From NCBI GenBank assembly GCA_003644385.1, contig QNCD01000001.1, positions 598 through 64,597 of the forward strand: a stretch of DNA of 64,000 bases. Reading direction: 5' to 3'. The translations under genes and the position numbers were made by a program. The stretch's first letter is position 1, and each line of letters begins with the position of its first letter. The notes beneath the pieces are model-generated. The model worked only from the letters and a program-made list of their open reading frames with translations, did not search any database and was not told the DNA's origin. The stretch is from Candidatus Omnitrophota bacterium (GTDB lineage Bacteria > Omnitrophota > Gorgyraeia > Gygaellales > Profunditerraquicolaceae). Below are positions 2,694-52,628 of the stretch, piece after piece.

Positions 2694-3980
2694 CTAGCCA
2701 GGCTGCTGCTCTATAAAATTATTTATATACTCTAAGTTCTTCCGGGTTGCTCCGCTGTGCTGCAGAATTATTTCCATGGCCTGTCCGCATAACCGTTTAA
2801 CCTTTAAGGGGTCATTTAATAACTCTCTGATGTTAACTTCCAGCCCTCTAAAATCCTCAACCATAATTGCTGCTTTAGCTTTCAGAAACGAATTGGCAAT
2901 ATCGCGAAAATTGAACATATACGGACCGAAGATTACCGGCTTACCCAATGCTGCCGGTTCCAGAATATTATGTCCGCCTTTTTTCACCAGGCTCCCCCCA
3001 ATAAACACAACGTCGGCTAAAATATAAAAGGATAAAAGTTGGCCTATTGTATCCAAAATAAATACGGCTTGAGGCTTAAGCTTATCCGGGTCACTGCTTA
3101 AATTAGAAATTAATAGCGGATTGAACCCGGATTTCAATACCAGTTTTTCGATATTCGCTGAACGCTCAGGGTGACGCGGCGCAAACAGAAGCCTTAATCC
3201 GGGGAATTCTTTGCGTAAATTTTTATAAACTGCTAAAATTCCTTCTTCCTCTTGCGCATGGGTGCTGCCGGCGACCAATAATTTTTCCTGCGGCCCTAAT
3301 TTTAAAAGCTGTGCGGCTGGGCCTGCCTGGAAAGCAGCCTTCTCTTGGAAAGACAATGTATTATCAAATTTCATATTACCGCTTACTTGGATTTTATTTT
3401 CTTCTACGCCTAAAGACAATAGTCTCTTCTTATCAGTAGAAGTCTGCACGCAAAAAAGGCTGACTTTATTTAAAACCGGCCTTAAGAAGGGCTTTAATAA
3501 ACGGTATCCCTTAAACGACTTATCCGAAATTCTTCCGTTTATCAATACTATAGGAACATTTCGACGGTAAAGAAAGGTAATCAAATTCGGCCAGATTTCA
3601 GTCTCAGCAATAACAAAAAGGCTAGGCTGAATCGAACTTATGACGCGTTTTACAATGAAACTAAAGTCTAAAGGCAGGTAAGTAACAAAATCCCGCTCTG
3701 AGGCCAAGCTTTTGGCAATTTTATTTCCGGTAGAAGTCACAGTAGAAATGACCAGATTCTTATCAGGATGAGCAATTTTTATTTTCTCGATTAATCCCCT
3801 GATTGCTACGGCTTCCCCCACGCTGACTGCGTGTATCCAAATAGGACGGTTTAATTTTAATTCTTCAGGCAGAAACCCTAAACGCGAAAGAAATCCTGCG
3901 TGGAATTTACGCCTGAACAAATATACCGGAAGATGGACTAAAGAAATTAACAAAAATACTAAATCATACAATATAAACAT
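2694..3980 (-). CDS. waaA: 3-deoxy-D-manno-octulosonic acid (Kdo) transferase
   Basis: N-terminal membrane anchor and an IWIHAVSVGE motif (the WIHAASVGE block of KdtA/WaaA), with a glycosyltransferase C-terminal domain. Confidence 0.85.
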   Translation of the reverse strand: MFILYDLVFLLISLVHLPVYLFRRKFHAGFLSRLGFLPEELKLNRPIWIHAVSVGEAVAIRGLIEKIKIAHPDKNLVISTVTSTGNKIAKSLASERDFVTYLPLDFSFIVKRVISSIQPSLFVIAETEIWPNLITFLYRRNVPIVLINGRISDKSFKGYRLLKPFLRPVLNKVSLFCVQTSTDKKRLLSLGVEENKIQVSGNMKFDNTLSFQEKAAFQAGPAAQLLKLGPQEKLLVAGSTHAQEEEGILAVYKNLRKEFPGLRLLFAPRHPERSANIEKLVLKSGFNPLLISNLSSDPDKLKPQAVFILDTIGQLLSFYILADVVFIGGSLVKKGGHNILEPAALGKPVIFGPYMFNFRDIANSFLKAKAAIMVEDFRGLEVNIRELLNDPLKVKRLCGQAMEIILQHSGATRKNLEYINNFIEQQPG

Positions 3981-4903: not shown

Positions 4904-6883
4904 CTATGCGGGCTCAGGAAGAGTGTTGCTGATAAACCTGCATTTGGGATAATTTGTGCAGCCGTAGAAATGGCCCCTCCTGGAATAACGCTCCACTAAT
5001 TCTCCGTTGCATCCGGCTTGAGGGCACTTAACCCCGGTAGTTATAGCCTTGGAATTTTTACAATTAGGAAAATCAGAACAACTCAAGAATTTTCCTTTTC
5101 TTCCCCATTTAACAACCATAGGTTTGCCGCATTTATCGCATATCTGGTCGCTTACGATTACTTCTTTTTTTATGTGCTTCTGGGCAAAATCAAGGTTTTC
5201 CTTAAAAGGAAGGTAAAAATCCTGCAGGACTTTCAATCTTCCAATCTGGCCCTCTTCTATTTCATCAAGCTCCTCCTCCATTGTTGCGGTGAACTTCACA
5301 TTCATCACCCGCGGGAAATACTCTACCAGTAAATCGCTGACCATACAACCCAATTCCGTAGGGTGAAAATATCCTTTAATCCTGCGGATATAATGACGCA
5401 AAATCAGGGTATAAATTATCGGCGCATAGGTAGACGGACGGCCTATACCCTCTTCTTCTAAAATCTTGATTAAAGAACTGTCTGAAAATCTGGGCGGTGC
5501 CTTTGTAAAATGCTGCGAAGTTATCAATTCTATAAGTTTGAGAGTTTCGTCTTTTTTTAACTCGGGAAGCTTGTCTTTTTTTTCTTTATTTTCTTCTTCC
5601 TCCAGATTATAACAAGCCAGGAAACCGTCAAAAATTAAACTGAATCCGGAAGCACTGAATATATAATTTTCCGCTTTTATTTCTACTGAAGTATTTAAAT
5701 AACGCGCTGGCGTCATCTGGCTGGCCAGGAAGCGCCGGTAAATCAACTCGTAAAGCTTGTACTGATCCGGTGTAAGATAGTTTTTAAGGTTCTCCGGTCG
5801 GTGCGAAATTAAAGTAGGGCGGATTGCCTCGTGTGCTGCCTGGACATGTTTTTTTACTTTATAGAAATTAGGCTTAGCTGGTAAATAATCCTTACCGTAA
5901 TTTTGCGCAATAAAAACCCTTACCTGGTTTAATGCCTCCTCTGCGACATGCGTAGAATCCGTGCGCATATAAGTGATTAAACCGACCGGGCTCTCCTGGC
6001 CGATATCTATTCCTTCATAAAGTTGCTGCGCTATCCTCATGGTTTTATTGGCGTTAAACCTTAGCTTATTAAATGCATCCTGCTGTAATGTACTGGTAAT
6101 AAAAGGCGCATAAGGAGAACGTTTTTTTTCGGCCTGTTTAACTTGAGAAACAATAAACTGCTTATTTTTTATATCCGCAACCAGAGAATCGGCCTGTGCC
6201 TTGTCTTTGATTTCTGCTTTTTTATCCCCTATCTTTATAAGTTTTGCTGAGAAAGGACTGACAGTTGAACGCTGAGAAATGAGAGCTTGAACCAGTTTCG
6301 CCTCAATTTCCCAGTATTCCTGAGGCTTGAAATTATTAATCTGTTTTTCCCTTTCTACGATTTGCCTTAAGGCTACAGACTGCACTCTTCCTGCGCTTAA
6401 ACCCCGGGCGATTTTTTTCCAGAGCAGAGGACTTAAAAAATAACCCACCAGACGATCCAGCACCCTGCGTCCGATTTGAGCCTCGACCATATTTAGGTCA
6501 AAATCACGGGGATTTTTGAACGCTTCTTTTACCGCCTGCGGCGTAATTTCATGAAAAACAACGCGCCAAACTTTTTTATTGTTAAAAAGCTTATTTTTAA
6601 TATGCCAGCCAATAGCTTCCCCTTCCCGGTCCGGATCAGTAGCAACAAAAATGTCTTCTTTATTTTTAGATTCTTTCTTTAGCATGGTCAGCGTCTTATT
6701 TCTACCGTGAATAACTTCGTAAGAGGGCTGGAAGCCTTTTTCTATCTCTACACCTAATTTGCTTGCCGGCAGATCAATGAGGTGGCCGTATGATGCGACA
6801 ACGCAATAACTCTTGCCTAATATCTTGCCTAATGTTTTTGCCTTGGTAGGAGACTCTACAATAACTAAAGATGTTTTCTTCAT
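4904..6883 (-). CDS. topA: DNA topoisomerase I
   Basis: Toprim N-terminus (LVIVESPTKAKTLGK...YGHL), a topo IA core, and C-terminal Cys4 zinc-ribbon repeats (CDKCGKPM...CPQAGC...). Confidence 0.9.
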   Translation of the reverse strand: MKKTSLVIVESPTKAKTLGKILGKSYCVVASYGHLIDLPASKLGVEIEKGFQPSYEVIHGRNKTLTMLKKESKNKEDIFVATDPDREGEAIGWHIKNKLFNNKKVWRVVFHEITPQAVKEAFKNPRDFDLNMVEAQIGRRVLDRLVGYFLSPLLWKKIARGLSAGRVQSVALRQIVEREKQINNFKPQEYWEIEAKLVQALISQRSTVSPFSAKLIKIGDKKAEIKDKAQADSLVADIKNKQFIVSQVKQAEKKRSPYAPFITSTLQQDAFNKLRFNANKTMRIAQQLYEGIDIGQESPVGLITYMRTDSTHVAEEALNQVRVFIAQNYGKDYLPAKPNFYKVKKHVQAAHEAIRPTLISHRPENLKNYLTPDQYKLYELIYRRFLASQMTPARYLNTSVEIKAENYIFSASGFSLIFDGFLACYNLEEEENKEKKDKLPELKKDETLKLIELITSQHFTKAPPRFSDSSLIKILEEEGIGRPSTYAPIIYTLILRHYIRRIKGYFHPTELGCMVSDLLVEYFPRVMNVKFTATMEEELDEIEEGQIGRLKVLQDFYLPFKENLDFAQKHIKKEVIVSDQICDKCGKPMVVKWGRKGKFLSCSDFPNCKNSKAITTGVKCPQAGCNGELVERYSRRGHFYGCTNYPKCRFISNTLPEPA

Positions 6884-22774: not shown

Positions 22775-24073
22775 TTACAATGCTTTTGCCCCAATATCCT
22801 TACGATAATGCATGCCTTCAAAATTAATCATTCCCACTGCCTGGTAAGCCTTATCTATCGCCTCTTTTATAGTCTTTCCTAATCCGGCAACCCCCAAAAC
22901 CCTTCCGCCGTTAGTGACAAAACTTGTGACTTTGTGACCTTGTGACTTTGTGACCTTCTTTGTTCCCGCGTGAAAAACTGCCGTATCTTTAATCTTCGCA
23001 ACTTCCTTTAGTCCGGAAATCTCTTTGCCCTTCTCGTATTTTCCCGGATATCCTCTGGATGAACAGACTACACAAACGCAGGCGCGCTCATCCCATTTTA
23101 ACCCGTTATTCTTTAAAATACTGCTTAACTTTCTATCGCTTGCAGCAAGCATCACTTCTACTAAATCCGATTCAAGGCGCGGTAATATTGCCTGGGTCTC
23201 AGGATCTCCAAAACGCACATTAAATTCTAAAGTCCTGGGGCCCTCCTTAGTAATCATGATGCCTGCGTATAATGTCCCCTTATAATTTATGCCCTCTCTT
23301 ACTAAACCATCAATTGTAGGATGAATTATTTTTTCTAAAACTAACTTAAATAAGCCCGGGCTGACTACCGGCGCCGGAGAATATGCCCCCATACCTCCGG
23401 TATTCGGGCCTCTGTCGTTATCAAAAATGCGTTTATGGTCCTGGCTGGAAGCTAAAGGAATGACTGTTTTAGAATCTGTAATTACAATAATCGAGGCCTC
23501 CTCTCCCTCTAGGCATTCTTCGATGATTATCTCATTTCCCGCATCGCCGAAGATCTTATCCTGCATCATGGAATTTACTGCCTTCTTAGCCTCATCAGGA
23601 GTCTTTGCCACTACTACGCCTTTCCCCTGCGCTAAACCATCTGCCTTTACCACGCAAGGGCCATTGATCTTATCAATGTATTTCCTGGCTTCTTCGGGGT
23701 TATCAAAAATCTGAAAATCTGCAGTAGGGATTTTATATTTTGCCATTAATTCCTTGGCAAAAACCTTGCTTGCTTCCAGGCGCGCGCCTTTTTTACTTGG
23801 CCCGAATATTTTCAATTTATTATTTTCAAACTCATCCACAATACCTAAGGATAAAGGAACCTCAGGGCCCACTACTGTTAAATCAATTTTTTCCTGACGC
23901 GCAAAGTCTAATAACCGCCCGATATTCTCTACATTAATATCAATACACTCTGACAGCTGGGATATCCCGCCATTACCCGGCGCACAAAAAACCTTATCCA
24001 CCAGTTTCGACTGAGCTATCTTCCACACCAGCGCATGCTCCCTACCACCAGAACCAATAACCAGTATTCTCAT
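22775..24073 (-). CDS. purD: Phosphoribosylamine-glycine ligase
   Basis: MRILVIGSGGREHALVWK N-terminus, ATP-grasp core and a C-terminal VTNGGRVL block. Confidence 0.9.
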   Translation of the reverse strand: MRILVIGSGGREHALVWKIAQSKLVDKVFCAPGNGGISQLSECIDINVENIGRLLDFARQEKIDLTVVGPEVPLSLGIVDEFENNKLKIFGPSKKGARLEASKVFAKELMAKYKIPTADFQIFDNPEEARKYIDKINGPCVVKADGLAQGKGVVVAKTPDEAKKAVNSMMQDKIFGDAGNEIIIEECLEGEEASIIVITDSKTVIPLASSQDHKRIFDNDRGPNTGGMGAYSPAPVVSPGLFKLVLEKIIHPTIDGLVREGINYKGTLYAGIMITKEGPRTLEFNVRFGDPETQAILPRLESDLVEVMLAASDRKLSSILKNNGLKWDERACVCVVCSSRGYPGKYEKGKEISGLKEVAKIKDTAVFHAGTKKVTKSQGHKVTSFVTNGGRVLGVAGLGKTIKEAIDKAYQAVGMINFEGMHYRKDIGAKAL

Positions 24074-24089
24074 AATTTAAACTATTATG

Positions 24090-24323
24090 TTTTAACTGAA
24101 TCTGGCGGAATTTCGAGCGAATGGAGGTTTTAGTCAATGGAGCTTGAGTATTTTCGGGAATCCGAACGCGAAAGCATTCGGACGACGAGGATGTCCGAGC
24201 CCGTCTGGCGCGTGAGCGCCGACGGGGCGAGTCCCGCAGCCGCCGAAAATACGAAAGATCATTGACGTCCCCGCCTTTGGCAGGGAAAACCGACCTAAGC
24301 GAGAAAACCGACACATTCAGTAA
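24090..24323. other. GC-rich intergenic element bounded by ~17-bp imperfect terminal inverted repeats (MITE-like or structured RNA; identity unknown)
   Basis: A ~57% GC stretch in a ~43% GC context. The left end ttaactgaatctggcgg matches the reverse complement of the right end ccgacacattcagtaac at 13 of 17 positions. Several internal stem-loops (ccgaacgcgaaagcattcgg). Only Arg-rich, spurious-looking ORFs overlap it. Confidence 0.3.
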
Positions 24324-24351
24324 CTATTTATTACTTCGCTAGGGACAGTCC

Positions 24352-25398
24352 CTATGCAATCTCTACTTGCTTCTTACCCTTAACCACCTTGCCAATAACC
24401 CAAGACTTCACCTTAGATTCGGCAAGTTTTGAAATTACTCCCTTGGCGAATTCCGGCGCGACAATCAAAACCATCCCCACACCCATATTAAAGGTATGGT
24501 ACATCTCTTTATCTTCTATACCGCCTTTATTCTGAATCAGGCGGAATATTTTCGGCACATTCCAGGCGCTTTTATTTATTGTTACATTGAAATTATCCGG
24601 TAAAATCCTGGCAATCTTATCATAAAACGCCCCTCCGGTAATGTGGGCGATTCCCTTGACAATCGGAGGCTGTCGCCTTAAAGCCGAAAGCAGAGAAATA
24701 ACCGGCTTAACATAAATGCGCGTGGGTTTAAGCAACTCATCGCTCATGCTCTTTAATTCGCTTTCAGAAAATACTCTGCGCACTAAGGAATATCCATTAG
24801 AGTGGACTCCGTTGGATTCCAAACCGATTACTATATCGCCTAAAGAAATTTTAGAACCGTCAATAATATTCTTACGCTCCACTATTCCCACGCAAAATCC
24901 TGATAAATCATAATCTCCGTCTTTGTAGAAACCGGGCATCTGGGCAGTTTCCCCTCCGATTAAAACGCATCCGGCCTCTAAACAACCTTCATTCACCCCC
25001 TTAACTACATCCACTAAAATATCAGAATCTAACTTACTGAAGGCAATGTAATCCAGGAAAAATAGCGTTTCAGCGCCCACGCACAAAATATCATTTACGT
25101 TCATTGCTACCGCATCAATACCCACAGTATCGTGTTTGTTGACTAAAAAGGCGATTTTTAACTTTGTTCCAACTCCGTCGGCAGAAGAGACCAGGATTGG
25201 GTCTTTGTATTTGATTTTAGAAAGGTCGAAGAGGCTGCCGAAGCCCCCTACGCCTTTTAAAACCGCGCTGCCGTATGACTTTTTAAGCGAACTTTTAAGT
25301 TTAGTTTTAAATTGATTTGCCTTTTCTATGTCCACTCCTGATTTTTTATAAGTCAGACCTTTCATTTGTGCCCTCTCCCTGTCCAGCAATATAGACAC
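24352..25398 (-). CDS. purM: Phosphoribosylformylglycinamidine cyclo-ligase (AIR synthetase)
   Basis: PurM N- and C-domains (GVDIEKAN...DAVAMNVNDIL...GGETAQMPG). Confidence 0.9.
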   Translation of the reverse strand: MSILLDRERAQMKGLTYKKSGVDIEKANQFKTKLKSSLKKSYGSAVLKGVGGFGSLFDLSKIKYKDPILVSSADGVGTKLKIAFLVNKHDTVGIDAVAMNVNDILCVGAETLFFLDYIAFSKLDSDILVDVVKGVNEGCLEAGCVLIGGETAQMPGFYKDGDYDLSGFCVGIVERKNIIDGSKISLGDIVIGLESNGVHSNGYSLVRRVFSESELKSMSDELLKPTRIYVKPVISLLSALRRQPPIVKGIAHITGGAFYDKIARILPDNFNVTINKSAWNVPKIFRLIQNKGGIEDKEMYHTFNMGVGMVLIVAPEFAKGVISKLAESKVKSWVIGKVVKGKKQVEIA

Positions 25399-35501: not shown

Positions 35502-35566
35502 TTTGGCCTTGTCTTAACTTATTTATTATCAAGATGTTTAGCAATAGGGAAACGTCCCCATTGACT

Positions 35567-36318
35567 TTATAATATATGCATGCTTAGGGCGATTATTAAC
35601 ATTCCGGTTATAATTCCTAAAATCGACAAATGATATCCTCCGCCTTCGTAGGATAAAGGCAGGAGTTCATCAAAACTGATAAAAACCATCACGCCGGCAA
35701 CAGCAGCTAAGGTATAAGAAATAAACAAGCTATTTAGGAATGGCGTCAATAGCAATAAAGCTATAATTGCCCCAAGAGGTTCGGCGGATCCGGATAGAAA
35801 AGAATACCAAAAAGCCTTTTTTCTGCTTTTGCTGGCATAATAGATCGGTATTGCAACCGCAATCCTTTCAGGGATATTATGCAGCGCGATAGCAAAAGCT
35901 AAAGAAATACCTAGCTTTATATCTACCATTGAACTTATAAAAACTGCTATGCCTTCAGGAAAATTATGTATAGCCAGGCCTAGGGGCAGTATAAATTCCT
36001 GCTTTCATAATCCTGGAGTCGCAATCTTCTTTCTTGATATGCTCTTCTATATATTCGTGGGGAATAATAAAATCAAGAAGGCCGAGCAAAATAATTCCCC
36101 CAAAGAAAGCAATAACCGCCCTCAGGAAGCCGATCTCAGTTATAGCTGAAGGCAAAATATCCATGAAAGAAATAGAAATCATCACGCCGGCAGATAAACC
36201 CAAAGAAAACTGAAGATAAGTTTTTTTAAGATTCTTAACAAAAAAAAGCAAAGAAGCTGCCGACGTGGGTAAAAATACCCGCCAAAAAAGCCAGTAACAA
36301 AGGCAACCATATCTTCAT
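35567..36318 (-). pseudogene. zupT: ZIP-family zinc transporter ZupT, disrupted by two frameshifts
   Basis: Three consecutive frames encode, in order, MKIWLPLLLAFLAGIFTHVGSFFAFF, then VKNLKKTYLQFSLGLSAGVMISISFMD...PHEY, then LGLAIHNFPEGIAVF...ALHNIPERIAV, which aligns to ZupT. The first shift sits in an A8 tract (36240-36247); one fewer A restores the frame. The second lies near 36010-36020. Confidence 0.6.
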
Positions 36319-36470
36319 ACTTGGGGACGTTTCTATCATCTCTAACTCATTATAATAAAAAGAGTTATAACCGCCTCGGAATTATAACATTTTAACAAAT
36401 TTCACCACCTAAGCAATCGTAACTCTTTGTCATTCGGAGAGTAATTAAAACGAAGGGATCCTCTCTATAA

Positions 36471-42176: not shown

Positions 42177-43868
42177 ATGTCGGATTTAAGAAAATTAAAA
42201 GTATATTTTAGATTGCACTGGATCAAAATATTGCTTATAACCCTTGCCAGTATTTTAGGGATATTCACGGTTATCGTGCTTTCTGCCGGCGTCACTGCCA
42301 TGCTTAACCTGGAGTCCTTCTATAAACAGCTGCAATTCTCAAGCATCCCTTTACAATTCTTCTTTTCAATTGTCACCGCGATTATCTTTGCTTCCATCTA
42401 CACTATTTTCCATTATTGGTTCTTTTTTGGCGGGGGGATGACTAAATTAGGCCAGAAAAAAGTAAAAAGCGAAGAAGTAAATATACGCTGGAAGGAAGTC
42501 ATTGGAATGGATGAAGTAAAACGCGAAGCCTGGGAAGTAGTACAGCTGCTCAAAGACCGCTCCAGCCTGCAGCGTGTAGGCGGCAGGGTAATCAAAGGGC
42601 TCCTGCTCTCCGGCCCTCCGGGATGCGGCAAGACCTACCTGGCAAAAGCTATTGCAACAGAAGTAGGTTTGCCTTTTTTATCGGTAGTAGGCAGCGAAAT
42701 AGAAGGTATTATTGTAGGATTAGGGGCGGCAAAACTGCGCGCTCTTTTTAAAGAAGCCAGAGCCATGGCAGAGCTTCACGGCGGATGTATCGTATTTATT
42801 GACGAGGTAGATTCCATTGCCCGGCCGCGCCGCGGAGATATGGGTTTCGGCGGACAGATGAGCGCAAATGCCGCTGTAAATCAACTGCTCACGGAAATGG
42901 ACGGCTTAAGAAAAATAGAAAATAATGTTGTAGTAATCGGAGCAACTAACGTTGATGAACGCGAACTTGACCCGGCTTTAATGCGCGCCGGAAGATTTGA
43001 CAGAAAAATCTATATCGGATTGCCGAGCCTAAAAGACAGGGAGAATTTATTCCGTTTTTATCTTAGTAAAATAAAGTACGATCCAGAAAGCATCGATGTA
43101 GCTGTAGTTGCCCGGAAAGCGGTTTATAAAAGCCCTGCGGATATATCTAATATCGCCCGCGAAGCCAGTATTATCGCGGTGCGCAATAAAAAAGAAAAAG
43201 TTACCATGAAAGAAATAAATGAAGCCATGGACAGGATAGACTTAGGTTTAAAGAAACCCATTGAATTCAGCGAAAAAGAAAAAGAGCAAGTCGCCTATCA
43301 CGAGGCCGGCCATGCTATCGTAGCTTACCTCCTGCACCCTACTGATGACGTCTTTAAAGCCAGTATCATTCCGCGCAGTATCGGGCTGGGGGTTGTCTCT
43401 CACCATTCGCGCCAAGAATCGCATATCCACAACCGTGAATATTACCTGGCTAACATTAAAGTAACACTGGGCTCATACGTGGCGGAAAAATTAAAATTCA
43501 ATACCACCACCTCCGGCGTAGATGAAGATATGCATCAGGCAATGTGGTGGGCCTATAATATGGTCTGGCGCTGGGGCATGGGGCCGTCAGGCTTAAAAGG
43601 GAATTTTAAGGCATTAGAAGCTTCTTTTGGTAATCCTTTAGGATTTAGCACGCCAAACTTTCTTTCTGAAAAAACAAAAGAAAAATTAGATGAAGACGTG
43701 CAGAAGATAATCCAGCAGTGCCTCCAGGAAGTAGAAGGACTGTTAACCAAAGAAGCTCAACTGCTAGAGCGCTTCGCACAAGAACTGAAAAACAGGCAGG
43801 AACTCGATTATGATGAAATTGAAGCTATATTCAAGGAATGCGGAAAAGAAAGACTGCGCCAGCCATAA
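42177..43868 (+). CDS. ftsH: ATP-dependent zinc metalloprotease FtsH (compact form)
   Basis: N-terminal TM segments, AAA+ module (GPPGCGKT, DEVD) and M41 protease with HEAGHAIV zinc motif. Confidence 0.8.
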   Translation: MSDLRKLKVYFRLHWIKILLITLASILGIFTVIVLSAGVTAMLNLESFYKQLQFSSIPLQFFFSIVTAIIFASIYTIFHYWFFFGGGMTKLGQKKVKSEEVNIRWKEVIGMDEVKREAWEVVQLLKDRSSLQRVGGRVIKGLLLSGPPGCGKTYLAKAIATEVGLPFLSVVGSEIEGIIVGLGAAKLRALFKEARAMAELHGGCIVFIDEVDSIARPRRGDMGFGGQMSANAAVNQLLTEMDGLRKIENNVVVIGATNVDERELDPALMRAGRFDRKIYIGLPSLKDRENLFRFYLSKIKYDPESIDVAVVARKAVYKSPADISNIAREASIIAVRNKKEKVTMKEINEAMDRIDLGLKKPIEFSEKEKEQVAYHEAGHAIVAYLLHPTDDVFKASIIPRSIGLGVVSHHSRQESHIHNREYYLANIKVTLGSYVAEKLKFNTTTSGVDEDMHQAMWWAYNMVWRWGMGPSGLKGNFKALEASFGNPLGFSTPNFLSEKTKEKLDEDVQKIIQQCLQEVEGLLTKEAQLLERFAQELKNRQELDYDEIEAIFKECGKERLRQP

Positions 43869-51905: not shown

Positions 51906-51920
51906 AGTATTTAGATAAAA

Positions 51921-52628
51921 TTATCTGCGCCTTCCTCTGCCACCGCCTTTGGCAGGAGTGCGTCCCCCTTGAGCTGCCGGTTTCTGGCCCTTCTGCATAC
52001 CTTTATCGCGCCGGTCTTCTCTGCGGTCACGCCTATCTTCTCTTCTGTCAAGGCGGTCTTCTCTTCTATCTCTTAATCCAGCAGGTGATGCGCCTTCTCC
52101 TATTGGCGGGCCTAGTCTTCTGCCTGGGCCCTGTGCAGGCGGGCCAACTCTTCTACCTGGAAGCGGGCCTGAACCCTGACCTTCGCCTTTAGGAGGCGGA
52201 CCAACTCTTCTGCCTAGGCCTTTAGGAGGCGGGCCAACTCTTCTTCCGCGAGGCGGAGGCTCTCCTTCCTGGCGCGCTCCTCTGATATCCTCTCTTAATT
52301 CTCCCCTGGCATCTTTTAATGCCTGCTGATCTTCTCGTTTCTGTTGGACATTCGCCTCATGGGTTTGTCTCAACTGCTCCCTGAGTGACCTTGCAGTCTC
52401 AAAATCCCCTGCCTGCTCAGCTTCTCTAATCTGTTCGCGCAATTGCTGCTCTTCTTCTCTTGCTGCCTGAGCACTTTCTTTTATGCTTTCTTTTTGGGCA
52501 TCGACTGCCTCTTTGGCAGCGCTAATCTTACTTTGCCAATCAGTTTCTTCTTCTTGCGCCGACACACCGGTTGTCAATGCAAATAACCACAAACCAACAA
52601 CCGTACTAATTAAAAATGGCCTTTTCAT
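51921..52628 (-). CDS. Secreted low-complexity repeat protein (Q/E/R-rich coiled-coil N-part, RRVGPPxKG and DRREDRR repeats)
   Basis: Signal peptide followed by an LTxxQ-like heptad region, which may be Spy/CpxP-like (uncertain), then Pro/Gly/Arg tandem repeats. Confidence 0.45.
   Translation of the reverse strand: MKRPFLISTVVGLWLFALTTGVSAQEEETDWQSKISAAKEAVDAQKESIKESAQAAREEEQQLREQIREAEQAGDFETARSLREQLRQTHEANVQQKREDQQALKDARGELREDIRGARQEGEPPPRGRRVGPPPKGLGRRVGPPPKGEGQGSGPLPGRRVGPPAQGPGRRLGPPIGEGASPAGLRDRREDRLDRREDRRDRREDRRDKGMQKGQKPAAQGGRTPAKGGGRGRRR
52104..52258. repeat. Degenerate ~33-bp tandem repeats (about 4 copies) inside a CDS
   Basis: ggaggcgggccaactcttctgcctaggccttta-like units encode RRVGPPPKG repeats. 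Confidence 0.5.

What the first reader, a model, noticed from the sequence alone, without database searches (positions are those of the whole stretch)
24090..24323. GC-rich, TIR-bounded 230-bp element embedded between purM and purD
A 278-bp gap interrupts an otherwise tightly packed purine operon. Its core is about 57% GC, against about 43% for the surrounding DNA. Its two ends form a 17-bp imperfect inverted repeat (ttaactgaatctggcgg versus ccgacacattcagtaac, 13 of 17 matches). It also contains several internal hairpins (e.g. ccgaacgcgaaagcattcgg, tagggacagtcccta at the purM stop). The ORFs called on it are Arg-rich and overlap the purD start, so they look like spurious translations of GC-rich DNA. 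The architecture fits either a non-autonomous MITE-like insertion or a structured RNA with a long closing helix that lies within, and possibly regulates, the operon. I could not match it to the purine or ZTP riboswitch, SRP RNA, tmRNA, 6S RNA or RNase P RNA consensus by eye.
Basis: seen in the sequence. Interest (0 to 1): 0.5.

Follow-up and report, generated by a model that had tools for sequence, protein, structure and literature searches.

The report
Dispersed structured repeat in Omnitrophota
The GC-rich 227-bp stretch between purM and purD is one copy of a previously uncatalogued, multi-copy repeat that folds into a conserved branched rod and is scattered between unrelated genes of Omnitrophota bacteria, so it looks like a small mobile-type element rather than a regulator of purine genes.

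Summary
Window 24095-24321 is a GC-rich (54-63% against 40%), strongly folding, non-coding island in the 278-nt purM-purD gap of a Candidatus Omnitrophota MAG.

It is not locus-specific. I recovered 27 homologues, including one internally deleted and two end-truncated copies, plus separate fragments, from about 18 MAGs or metagenome contigs. One genome holds at least 6 copies, and the neighbouring genes are unrelated housekeeping genes.

A hand-built covariance model gives a 75-pair fold. 93.5% of cells are paired, 41 of 75 pairs show compensatory changes, and 0 of 500 shuffles reach this.

Rfam 15 has no match, and no ORF on the element has a protein homologue.

The fold is consistently better on the strand antisense to most flanking genes (the + strand here). 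That strand carries GNRA-type loops and tandem G·A pairs.

Five observations point to insertional behaviour:
- Copies cluster by genome.
- Copies break assemblies.
- Copies occur truncated and nested.
- Copies sit beside other rod-like repeat families.
- Copies recur at different positions and orientations in the purM-purD hot spot.

No target-site duplication, transposase or promoter was found. Best reading: a REPIN/ERIC/bcr1-like non-autonomous structured repeat that is a passenger in the pur operon.

The parts
24095..24321 (.). Whole family-A element (227 nt), from the outermost P1 pair to its partner. 'Forward' in my alignments is the window - strand. The structurally favoured strand of the family is the window + strand.
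   Evidence: The covariance model R1 matches window 24086-24326 (-) at 222.5 bits, E 1e-51. Helix coordinates were mapped.
24303..24321 (.). P1/P2 closing helix, arm on the purM side.
   Evidence: It pairs with 24095-24114. 13 of the 16 P1 pairs and both P2 pairs show compensatory changes across the family.
24095..24114 (.). P1/P2 closing helix, arm on the purD side.
24115..24122 (+). Conserved internal loop. It reads GAGCGAAT on the + strand and lies opposite 24295-24302 (CTAAGCGA). Read on the + strand it forms tandem G·A pairs around a G-C/C-G step.
   Evidence: Most copies read GAGCGAAU / (N)UGAGCGA on the reverse strand. The window sequence was read directly.
24295..24302 (+). The partner side of the conserved internal loop.
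24286..24294 (.). P3 helix arm, pairing with 24123-24131. The window has the variant with two central mismatches, which read as G·A/A·G on the + strand.
   Evidence: A-U to G-C switch in 7 copies. The tandem mismatch was counted.
24123..24131 (.). P3 helix, second arm.
24269..24285 (.). Variable hairpin P3a (CCCUGCC-AAA-GGCGGGG on the - strand). This site holds 0 to about 90 nt in other copies.
   Evidence: Alignments. L029 carries a roughly 90-nt insert here.
24260..24266 (.). P4 arm, pairing with 24133-24139.
   Evidence: 100% of cells are paired and 4 of 7 pairs are compensatory.
24133..24139 (.). P4, second arm.
24243..24257. P4b/P5 arm, pairing with 24143-24157. This matches inverted repeat I1 of the repeat finder.
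24143..24157 (.). P4b/P5, second arm.
24183..24242 (.). Long arm of the three-way junction. It comprises Pa (24239-24242 with 24183-24186), Pb (24233-24235 with 24189-24191) and the P6 hairpin (24216-24228 with 24199-24211). The P6 loop at 24212-24215 reads GTGA on the + strand.
   Evidence: The first Pa pair switches C-G to U-A in 10 copies. The middle Pb pair switches G-C to C-G in 2 copies. P6 has 6 compensatory pairs. P6 loops are listed.
24161..24182 (.). The loop at 24170-24173 reads GAAA on the + strand. There is a conserved U·G on the - strand, which is a C·A mismatch on the + strand.
   Evidence: P7 covaries only in L052, the one copy that was not retrieved through a P7-based pattern.
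24340..24354 (.). Palindrome TAGGGACAGTCCCTA, overlapping the purM stop codon and 18 nt from the outermost P1 base (24321). A like palindrome lies 14-34 nt upstream of the aligned copy in L009, L042 and L035.
24352..25398 (-). purM (AIR synthase), the upstream neighbour.
   Evidence: homologous to the AIRS-domain purM genes of L035, L052 and L027.
22775..24073 (-). purD (GAR synthetase), the downstream neighbour. Its start codon lies 21 nt after the last P1 base.

Best explanation
Window 24095-24321 is one copy of a roughly 225-nt interspersed, GC-rich, structured repeat family. I call it family A. It occurs in Candidatus Omnitrophota and in MAGs labelled Planctomycetales/Planctomycetota.

The element is a non-autonomous, mobile-type intergenic repeat. 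It is of the same general kind as REPINs, ERIC, Correia and bcr1 elements. It multiplies within genomes, lands between genes in tight intergenic spaces, accumulates next to other rod-like repeat families, and decays into fragments.

What is conserved is a fold of one single strand (inferred). The fold has five parts:
- a terminal helix of up to about 21 pairs (P1/P2);
- a rod stiffened by tandem G·A pairs;
- a variable hairpin site;
- a three-way junction;
- two hairpins capped by GNRA-type loops.

That fold is presumably what an enzyme acting in trans recognises when it copies or keeps the element. This step is inferred, and no enzyme was identified.

The fold reads best on the strand that is usually antisense to the neighbouring genes, which is the + strand here. 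In the pur operon the element is therefore most likely a passenger. It would be co-transcribed with purM and purD in its weaker orientation. At most it adds a long double-stranded RNA segment that could affect processing or stability of the purM-purD transcript (inferred, not shown).
For: **Shown: it is a family, and it is multi-copy.**
- The metagenome scan gave 4 homologues.
- The genome scan gave 43 pattern matches, of which 21 are true homologues.
- There are at least 6 copies in CAZQEY01, 4 in JAZDFW01 and 3 in JAZDFF01.
- The covariance model finds 26 copies in the loci then held and one more in L052. It finds no second copy in the window.

**Shown: the fold is conserved.**
- 93.5% of cells are paired, 41 of 75 pairs have changes on both sides, and 0 of 500 shuffles reach this.
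- Slid controls give only 7-13 such pairs.
- Hairpin expansions occur at three different sites.

**Shown: it is not in known catalogues.**
- Rfam 15 gives nothing at the gathering threshold or at E up to 10.
- There is no phage or plasmid similarity and no viral contig match.
- There is no protein homologue.

**Shown: the fold is strand-asymmetric.**
- The reverse strand is more stable in 21 of 23 copies, by 10.5 kcal/mol on average. With DNA parameters it is more stable in 22 of 23.
- On that strand P7 is GNRA-capped in 25 of 25 copies. P6 loops are G..A in 25 of 25 and strict GNRA in 15.
- The same strand carries the GAGCGA/GAGCGA tandem G·A loop.

**Shown: it behaves like an insertion.**
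- Copies from one genome are each other's nearest relatives: 88% mean identity within a genome against 80% between genomes.
- Contigs end inside the element in L001 and in L047.
- L019 has an internal deletion. L053/L054 carry a 3' remnant. L052 holds an inverted fragment nested inside another repeat.
- The purM-purD region holds the element at different positions and orientations in the window, L035, L052 and L027, and is empty in L055.
- The panE-PolX locus carries it in opposite orientations in L006 and L019.
- It lies between cysS and tmk in L013 but not in L039.

**Shown: no independent-gene signals.** There is no promoter at a fixed distance on either side and no asymmetry in the T-run after P1.

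**Literature.** Compensatory changes that keep a hairpin are documented for mobile intergenic repeats, namely bcr1 (PMC3184786) and REPINs (PMC3116915).
Against: - No target-site duplication or fixed terminal sequence could be defined.
- No transposase, recombinase, reverse transcriptase or RAYT-like gene lies within about 3 kb of any copy, and no unknown protein recurs beside the copies.
- I found no presence/absence pair between closely related genomes, so movement is inferred, not observed.
- Copies within a genome are 7-12% diverged yet still 93% paired. That could instead mean each copy is kept by selection for a host function.
- The three-way junction with GNRA loops and tandem G·A pairs is more elaborate than any described MITE or REPIN hairpin. 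It looks like a functional RNA.
- The sample is biased. 21 copies were retrieved with a 19-mer inside P7, so core conservation and copy numbers are ascertainment-dependent.
- The orientation bias (12 against 3 for loci with co-directional flanks, from crude ORF calls) is modest.
Confidence: 0.55

Rival explanations
1. It is a family of RNA genes or RNA modules whose product is the folded strand (the + strand in the window). This would be a multi-copy structured non-coding RNA of Omnitrophota with a host or element-encoded function, for example a protein-binding scaffold.
For: - Covariation is strong, and hairpin expansions are of the kind typical of structured RNAs.
- GNRA-type loops, tandem G·A pairs and G>C skew all sit on one strand in 21-25 of 23-25 copies.
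- The core is highly conserved across MAGs from different habitats.
- It is the only non-coding GC-rich island in an AT-rich window other than a tRNA.
Against: - No promoter-like motif lies at a fixed distance and there is no terminator-like tail on either strand.
- The favoured strand is antisense to tightly abutting genes in 12 of 15 loci with co-directional flanks, which leaves no room for its own signals.
- Truncated, internally deleted and nested copies exist.
- Copy number varies from genome to genome.
- DNA energy parameters give the same strand preference, so RNA is not required.
Confidence: 0.17
2. Family A and its partner rods (families B, B' and C) are paired boundary or recombination sites of small gene cassettes. 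Accessory genes would be inserted or exchanged between an A element and a second rod by a site- or structure-specific recombinase acting on a folded strand, loosely as integron attC sites work.
For: - A is directly followed by another rod in L017, L025, L029, L005, L008, L019 and L031.
- A is followed by one ORF and then a rod in L035, L041, L022, L052 and L027.
- The ORFs in between are accessory or unknown: DUF6036 nucleotidyltransferase, DUF5677, an AlbA_2/Schlafen-like protein and glycosidase-like proteins.
- purM-purD is a hypervariable slot, and L003/L056 have a duplicated purD 5' fragment at one cargo border.
- The folded strand is antisense to the genes, as is the attC bottom strand (own knowledge).
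Against: - There are no arrays, only one A copy per 8-kb locus.
- No integrase or recombinase gene lies nearby.
- The attC core sites RYYYAAC/GTTRRRY are absent from the window copy (CTGAAT/ATTCAG) and only AAC/GTT appear in the consensus.
- About half of the copies, including the window's, have no partner rod and sit between housekeeping genes.
- Clustering of unrelated repeats in permissive intergenic sites would give the same picture.
Confidence: 0.13
3. It is a cis-regulatory RNA of the purine operon, such as a riboswitch, attenuator or processing signal specific to purM-purD.
For: - It lies inside the operon, 21 nt before the purD start, and is co-directional in the window.
- The - strand fold of this particular copy is as stable as the + strand fold.
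- Four copies lie in purM-purD regions, and one precedes hisG, another PRPP-pathway gene.
Against: - The element is absent from that junction in L002, L003/L056, L004 and L055, and only a 3' remnant remains in L053/L054.
- It is in the opposite orientation in L027.
- Most copies flank unrelated genes.
- There is no Rfam purine, ZTP, PRPP or other riboswitch match even at E up to 10.
- There is no terminator or anti-terminator arrangement.
Confidence: 0.03
4. It is a classical cut-and-paste MITE, an internally deleted IS with transposase-binding terminal inverted repeats and a fixed target-site duplication.
For: - It is multi-copy and intergenic.
- Its ends are inverted repeats with a common AATGAAC...GTTCATT motif.
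- Its flanks are AT-rich and often contain TA or TTAA.
Against: - No consistent direct repeat flanks the copies.
- Terminal sequences differ between copies through compensated changes. Examples are CTGAAT, TATAGCC, AATGCCTC and AATACCAC, and differences occur even within one genome.
- The conserved part is the asymmetric internal core, not the ends.
- No parent IS was seen.
Confidence: 0.08
5. It is a degraded remnant of a protein-coding gene.
For: ORFs of 42-90 aa cross the element.
Against: - No Pfam family matches.
- No hit came from 5.8 billion protein clusters with a query built from four ORFs of the family.
- The reading frame is not kept between copies because of indels in the loops and the variable hairpin.
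- The substitution pattern follows base pairing, not codons.
Confidence: 0.01

Closest known systems
REPINs / REP sequences mobilised by RAYT transposases (Bertels and Rainey 2011, PMC3116915)
   Same: Both are non-autonomous, intergenic, multi-copy and long-lived in a lineage. Both form a hairpin in single-stranded DNA or mRNA that is kept by compensatory changes. Both occur as singlets and in clusters, and both can sit in genomes with no transposase nearby.
   Different: REPINs are about 70-110 nt simple hairpins made of two inverted 20-40-nt REPs with a conserved 16-mer. Family A is about 225 nt. It has an asymmetric core, a three-way junction, GNRA-type loops and tandem G·A pairs, and it is not built from two inverted copies of one unit. 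I could not look for a RAYT gene.
bcr1 of the Bacillus cereus group (reviewed in PMC3184786)
   Same: bcr1 is an interspersed repeat with a non-conserved genomic distribution. It has a branched ('cruciform-like') RNA fold kept by compensatory base changes, some copies have lost stability, and it is regarded as a special class of mobile sequence.
   Different: bcr1 is about 155 bp and is flanked by 5-bp direct repeats, and its transcription has been shown. Family A is longer, has no detectable direct repeats, is unrelated in sequence, and its transcription is unknown.
ERIC (IRU) and Correia/NEMIS elements (reviewed in PMC3184786)
   Same: These are imperfect palindromes of 100-160 bp inserted between genes of operons and co-transcribed, forming long RNA hairpins. 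Variants carry internal insertions. Their effects on mRNA depend on orientation (own knowledge for ERIC in Yersinia and for RNase III processing of Correia elements).
   Different: They have conserved TIRs and a TA duplication and form a simple hairpin. Family A has covarying ends, no duplication and a complex core.
Integron attC sites
   Same: In both, structure is conserved more than sequence, there is a variable terminal structure, and the functional folded strand is antisense to the adjacent ORFs (own knowledge). Family A is sometimes followed by an accessory ORF and then a second structured site.
   Different: attC sites are 57-141 bp, carry R''/R' core sites (RYYYAAC/GTTRRRY), occur in arrays and need an integron integrase. 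None of these features is met here.

Membership tests
Classical MITE (IS-derived, DDE transposase) | Terminal inverted repeats conserved in sequence among copies (transposase binding sites) | tested here: not met
   The ends pair in every copy but differ in sequence through compensated changes: CTGAATG, AATGAAC, TATAGCC, AATGCCTC and AATACCAC. 13 of 16 P1 pairs have changes on both sides.
Classical MITE (IS-derived, DDE transposase) | Target-site duplication of fixed length flanking each copy | tested here: not met
   Flanks of 23-25 copies were aligned at the P1 boundary. No recurrent direct repeat appears, only AT-rich sequence with frequent TA or TTAA.
Classical MITE (IS-derived, DDE transposase) | Several dispersed copies per genome | tested here: met
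   At least 6, 4 and 3 copies in three MAGs, on different contigs or in different contexts.
Classical MITE (IS-derived, DDE transposase) | An autonomous IS with the same ends in the same or a related genome | not testable with these tools
   Whole genomes were not available. No transposase lies within about 3 kb of any copy.
REPIN / REP-RAYT system | Two inverted REP units of 20-40 nt forming a simple hairpin of about 70-110 nt | tested here: not met
   The element is about 225 nt with a three-way junction and an asymmetric core. The reverse-complement match to the model scores only 12-63 bits against 146-259 bits.
REPIN / REP-RAYT system | Intergenic, multi-copy, hairpin kept by compensatory changes | tested here: met
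   The feature is as described for REPINs in PMC3116915.
REPIN / REP-RAYT system | A single-copy RAYT (Y1 HUH transposase) gene in the genome, often flanked by REPs | not testable with these tools
Riboswitch or cis-regulatory leader of purine genes | Conserved position upstream of one gene class across relatives | tested here: not met
   It is absent from the purM-purD junction in L002, L003/L056, L004 and L055, and only a 3' remnant remains in L053/L054. Elsewhere it lies next to unrelated genes.
Riboswitch or cis-regulatory leader of purine genes | Match to a curated RNA family (purine, ZTP, PRPP and others) | tested here: not met
   There are no Rfam 15 matches at gathering scores. Only E>1 noise appears in a permissive local scan.
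Integron attC site | R''/R' core sites RYYYAAC ... GTTRRRY at the ends | tested here: not met
   The window ends read CTGAAT...ATTCAG. The family consensus AATGAAC...GTTCATT shares only AAC/GTT.
Integron attC site | Arrays of cassettes next to an integron integrase (or clustered attC sites) | tested here: not met
   There is one copy per 8-kb locus and none elsewhere in the 64-kb window. No integrase is adjacent.
Housekeeping structured RNAs (6S, SRP, RNase P, tmRNA) | Match to the family model, and one or two copies per genome | tested here: not met
   There is no Rfam match. Up to 6 copies per genome exist, together with fragments.

The most novel reading that the evidence does not exclude
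The rods are not junk repeats. They would be the working parts of an undescribed system in Omnitrophota. One form of this reading: family A and its partner rods (B, B', C) are folded-strand recognition ends that let small accessory-gene cassettes move into slots such as purM-purD. The other form: the favoured strand is expressed as a new multi-copy structured RNA with a three-way junction, two GNRA caps and tandem G·A pairs, acting in trans.
Probability: 0.2. Interest if true: 0.8.

Novelty: new variant of a known kind. Interest (0 to 1): 0.5.

Why it matters
Omnitrophota are an uncultured, ultra-small and probably host-dependent phylum. In the literature held here I found no description of their repeats or non-coding RNAs.

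This work defines a covariation-supported fold of about 225 nt that Rfam 15 does not contain. It shows that the fold is multi-copy and strand-asymmetric. It also shows that the fold travels with at least three other rod-like families that gather at hot spots where accessory genes come and go.

There are practical consequences. The family explains spurious Arg-rich ORF calls and contig breaks in Omnitrophota MAGs, and it gives a covariance model to mask or census them.

There is also a conceptual point. The family sits between simple hairpin repeats (REPIN, ERIC) and true structured RNAs. It could therefore be a test case for how selection keeps a complex fold in a selfish or domesticated repeat, and for which enzyme reads it.

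Tried and rejected
**Searches that found nothing.**
- Rfam at gathering scores on the window and on 24 loci, and a permissive local scan. Only chance matches with E>1 appeared: a CRISPR-DR43-like 29-mer, Ms_AS-4 and YenS.
- blastn of the element against the window. There is no second copy.
- blastn in 'distant' mode against phage and plasmid collections. Only E of about 0.8-0.9 noise appeared.
- The pseudo-protein trick on viral and genome collections.
- The P7 19-mer in viral contigs. None.
- PADLOC on ten 'cargo' ORFs. No hits.
- Literature searches on Omnitrophica/Omnitrophota RNA motifs. Nothing relevant.

**A search that may have been poorly designed.** A chimeric query of four family ORFs against 5.8 billion protein clusters gave no hit. 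This is useful as a coding-remnant test. However, the cap on candidate words may have been filled by low-complexity junk.

**Ideas dropped after testing.**
- tmRNA or another known RNA for the 'AGCGGGTG...' stretch downstream of several copies. Rfam finds none, and it proved to be a second repeat family, B.
- An intrinsic-terminator tail after P1. The T content after the helix does not differ between strands (5.4 against 5.0 T in 13 nt, p = 0.7).
- A promoter for either strand. No motif lies at a fixed distance.
- Using G·U against A·C counts to pick the strand. The result was inconclusive. G·U totals 40, of which 25 come from one invariant pair, against 27 A·C. Energy and loop motifs decided the strand instead.
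- A recurrent unknown protein next to the copies as a candidate mobilising enzyme. All-against-all BLASTP of neighbours found only syntenic housekeeping genes.
- An exact comparison of empty and filled sites at cysS-tmk (L039 against L013) and at purM-purD (L055 against the window). The genomes are too diverged, at 51-75% protein identity, to define the ends.
Full report
**1. What is at the coordinates**

The pur genes run on the - strand. purM is 24352-25398 and purD is 22775-24073, followed by purE, a Sua5/LMWPc gene, rpiB and glyA. LOG and purF lie upstream.

The gap 24074-24351 is 278 nt. GC is 53.8% over 24090-24323 and reaches 62.7% in 150 nt, against 40.4% for the window. The only other GC-rich stretches are inside ORFs (42480-42905; 51914-52341, a low-complexity Arg/Gly/Pro-rich tail) or are a tRNA.

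Every detail in the finding is present:
- the 13-of-17 terminal inverted repeat;
- the hairpin ccgaacgcgaaagcattcgg;
- the palindrome tagggacagtcccta on the purM stop;
- the Arg-rich ORFs.

Both strands fold far better than shuffles, with z -5.3 for the - strand and -4.1 for the + strand. The exact purD protein is named as from a Candidatus Omnitrophota MAG. The next purD relatives are only 78% identical.

**2. It matches nothing catalogued and does not code**

Rfam 15 finds three tRNAs in the window and nothing at the element. A permissive scan of 23950-24450 gives only noise with E>1.

The three ORFs have no Pfam family. A query made of four ORFs read across family members finds no protein among 5.8 billion clusters. 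There is no phage, plasmid or viral-contig similarity.

**3. It is not a feature of the purM-purD junction as such**

I collected 10 distinct purM-purD regions.

| Locus | Content between purM and purD (or beyond purM) |
|---|---|
| window | family A only |
| L055 | plain 71-nt spacer |
| L002 | Band_7, then a different rod-like repeat (family C) |
| L003 / L056 | Band_7, GC-rich structured sequence, a duplicated 31-codon purD 5' fragment, DUF5674 and a 121-aa ORF |
| L004 | DUF6036 and a GH39 glycosidase |
| L053 / L054 | Band_7, family C, a 50-nt 3' remnant of family A, family B', a 481-aa ORF |
| L035 | Band_7, palindrome, A, a 254-aa ORF, family B |
| L052 | family B reversed, Band_7, A, a 386-aa ORF, then a split family B holding an inverted A fragment |
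| L027 | a GC-rich island, a 210-aa ORF, A reversed, three small ORFs, Band_7 (purD not located) |

The junction is therefore a hypervariable slot. Family A recurs in it, but at different places and in both orientations, and it also occurs there as debris.

**4. A dispersed multi-copy family**

Translating the element and letting related-loci scan with six degenerate 24-nt patterns gave four homologous DNA loci in metagenomes. These are L005-L008, at 79-85% identity.

A 19-mer from the conserved hairpin then gave 43 loci in GTDB species representatives. A profile search shows that 21 of these are true homologues and the rest are chance matches in other phyla.

One MAG (CAZQEY01, labelled uncultured Planctomycetales) has at least 6 copies. 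JAZDFW01 has 4 and JAZDFF01 has 3; both are labelled Omnitrophota.

The neighbours are unrelated:
- ruvB;
- PolX and panE;
- a CDF transporter and an LmbE-like gene;
- a ppiD-like gene and hisG;
- ferredoxin and an oxidoreductase;
- a DHH phosphoesterase;
- folD, queA, murJ and uvrC;
- pdxA, cysS and tmk;
- accessory genes, namely DUF6036, DUF5677, an AlbA_2 protein and Band_7.

No transposase, integrase or reverse transcriptase is adjacent. No unknown protein recurs beside the copies.

**5. The fold**

From nine well-aligned copies I wrote a structure by hand and built model R1. It finds 26 copies in the loci held then, plus L052 later. It finds no second copy in the window.

On the model alignment of 25 copies:
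- 93.5% of 1842 cells are standard pairs;
- 41 of 75 pairs have changes on both sides (142 cells);
- none of 500 shuffles reaches any measure;
- sliding the partners gives 7-13 such pairs and 28-48% pairing (34 pairs before L052 was added).

The alignment is fitted to the model, which favours it. However, the compensations are obvious in the raw MAFFT alignments. RNAalifold finds most helices independently.

The anatomy in window coordinates:

| Part | Coordinates |
|---|---|
| P1/P2 | 24303-24321 with 24095-24114 |
| Conserved internal loop | 24295-24302 with 24115-24122 |
| P3 | 24286-24294 with 24123-24131 |
| Variable hairpin | 24269-24285 |
| P4 | 24260-24266 with 24133-24139 |
| P4b/P5 | 24243-24257 with 24143-24157 |
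| Three-way junction, long arm (Pa, Pb, P6) | 24183-24242 |
| Three-way junction, hairpin P7 | 24161-24182 |

Other copies carry extra hairpins at three different places. These are 0 to about 90 nt at the variable site, an insertion after P4 in L013, and one in the 3' internal loop in L031.

A caveat applies. P7 is invariant in 24 copies, but most were fetched with a P7 pattern. In L052, reached through purD synteny, P7 is longer and covaries.

**6. Which strand**

Wobble counts do not decide this. G·U totals 40, of which 25 come from one invariant pair, against 27 A·C.

Energies do decide it. The strand complementary to my 'forward' orientation is more stable in 21 of 23 copies, by 10.5 kcal/mol on average (p about 5e-5). 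With DNA parameters it is more stable in 22 of 23.

The reasons are visible in the sequence. On that strand:
- P7 is capped by GGAA or GAAA in 25 of 25 copies;
- P6 loops are G..A in 25 of 25 and strict GNRA in 15;
- the 'internal loop' reads 5'-GAGCGA-3' on both sides, that is two tandem G·A pairs around G-C/C-G;
- the P3 variant has a further tandem G·A.

In the window that strand is the + strand, antisense to purM and purD. This copy is one of two exceptions where both strands fold about equally.

With crude ORF calls, the forward strand runs with both neighbours in 12 loci and against both in 3. Gaps are often only -10 to +60 nt. So the better-folding strand is usually antisense to tightly packed genes.

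Neither strand has a promoter-like motif at a fixed distance or a distinctive T-run after P1.

**7. Signs of insertional behaviour**

- Copies from one genome are each other's nearest relatives: 88% identity within a genome against 80% between genomes.
- Contigs end inside the element in L001 (the same organism as the window) and in L047. Several copies lie at or near the end of the stretch retrieved.
- L019 lacks the P6 arm.
- L053/L054 keep only the last 50 nt.
- L052 holds an inverted fragment inside a split family-B element.
- The syntenic panE-PolX region carries the element in opposite orientations in L006 and L019.
- A fills the cysS-tmk spacer in L013. In L039 it lies upstream of cysS instead.
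- L009 and L042, from the same genome, share the palindrome, the element and about 60 nt of flank, which looks like a larger duplicated unit.

I found no target-site duplication. I also found no pair of close genomes differing by one copy, so movement is inferred.

**8. Company it keeps**

| Family | Description | Where found |
|---|---|---|
| B | About 195 nt; GCGGGTGGTCTTGTCTGTG ... CACAGACAAGACCACCGCG; MFE -115 kcal/mol | 4-22 nt after A in L017, L025 and L029; 101 nt after A in L005; after one ORF in L035, L041 (3' half) and L052 |
| C | Rod-like repeat | L002, L053, L022 (after A and one ORF), L006 and L019 (next to A) |
| B' | Rod-like repeat | After A in L008 and in L053/L054 |

About half of the copies have a second rod downstream. 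This could be plain clustering in permissive sites, or it could mark paired ends around cargo genes. I keep the second reading as the novel case.

**9. Interpretation**

The pur-regulator reading is excluded by distribution. The coding-remnant reading is excluded by the searches and by the substitution pattern. A classical TIR/TSD MITE fails two defining tests.

Two readings fit all the facts. The first is a non-autonomous, mobile-type structured repeat whose single-stranded fold is what is selected. Compensatory maintenance of hairpins is documented for such repeats (bcr1, PMC3184786; REPINs, PMC3116915). The second is a multi-copy RNA gene family.

I prefer the first, at 0.55. My reasons are the fragments, the nesting, the hot-spot reuse in both orientations, the contig breaks, the genome-specific clades, the absence of expression signals, and the fact that DNA parameters give the same strand preference.

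The complexity of the core and the 93% pairing in diverged copies keep the RNA-gene reading alive, at 0.17. The pairing with partner rods keeps the cassette-boundary reading alive, at 0.13.

For the pur operon itself the likeliest consequence is small. The element is a passenger transcribed in its weaker orientation, and might act as a double-stranded processing site.

**10. Novelty**

The kind, interspersed structured intergenic repeats, is known. This family is not in Rfam 15, and no paper in the library describes repeats or RNA motifs of Omnitrophota.

It differs from described members in four ways: size, a covarying rather than conserved terminus, a three-way junction with GNRA caps and tandem G·A pairs, and its association with further rod families at accessory-gene slots. 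I rate it a new variant of a known kind, with interest 0.5.

Noticed in passing
L025 3434-3635; L029 5973-6172; L017 349-544 (-); L035 1515-1691 (-); L052 613-777 (-); L041 3870-3935 (-): A second repeat family, B, is a GC-rich rod of about 195 nt with closing helix GCGGGTGGTCTTGTCTGTG / CACAGACAAGACCACCGCG and MFE -115 kcal/mol. It has no Rfam match. It lies just downstream of family A, or one ORF further on. None is present in the window.
   Followed up: partly
L002 2791-2972; L053 2191-2361; L022 5931-6113; L006 6522-6687 (-); L019 5420-5563: A third rod-like repeat family, C, has the ends TTTTAGGGTTTTGTGCTGCGG ... CAGCTGCGCACAAAAACCCTAAAA. It occupies the Band_7-purD spacer in L002 and L053 and lies near family A in L022, L006 and L019. 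A fourth family, B', occurs at L008 5132-5265 and L053 2440-2525.
   Followed up: partly
window 24340-24354; L009 19-29; L042 1609-1619; L035 about 2734-2748 (-); L006 7748-7774: A small palindrome NAGGGAC-N-GTCCCTN occurs once in the 64-kb window, where 0.01 is expected. It lies 14-34 nt upstream of the aligned family-A copy in four genomes, at variable spacing. A similar GGGGGACACCC...GGGTGTCCCCC hairpin fills the cysS-tmk spacer of L039 (about 1862-1900). It may be a REP-like unit or an optional module.
   Followed up: partly
L003 2001-2096 and L056 about 3001-3096: A duplicated 31-codon 5' fragment of purD (GARS_N) lies upstream of the inserted DUF5674 and 121-aa genes, while the intact purD follows them. 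The fragment ends at GGGGATGTTTCGATTTTAAT. That motif also precedes the start of family B in L052 (3318-3333). This suggests site-specific insertion at the purD 5' end.
   Followed up: partly
window 35544-35559 (-) and 36323-36338 (+): Two inverted copies of GGGGACGTTTC flank about 760 nt. That stretch carries a membrane-protein gene split into two - strand ORFs (35567-35929 and 35964-36251). It could be another small insertion or a pseudogene bounded by the same motif seen at family-B borders. By itself it is not statistically significant (3 matches against 2.1 expected).
   Followed up: no
L001 1-111 (Logan SRR6823441 contig, same organism as the window): An independent assembly of the same purD locus ends 111 nt upstream of purD, inside the element. 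This is as expected if the repeat is multi-copy in this genome too and breaks the assembly graph.
   Followed up: partly
window 51921-52628 (-): A 235-aa ORF has a 3' half of up to 65% GC that encodes a repetitive Arg/Gly/Pro-rich low-complexity tail. This is the strongest GC anomaly of the window after the element. It is coding and unrelated to the repeat.
   Followed up: no
L031 1-1556 and 5026-5256: In one Omnitrophota MAG a family-A copy lies about 3.5 kb downstream of the 23S-5S rRNA genes. Further GC-rich non-coding islands lie at 1582-1779, 2364-2505 and 5308-5519 and match none of the families defined here.
   Followed up: no
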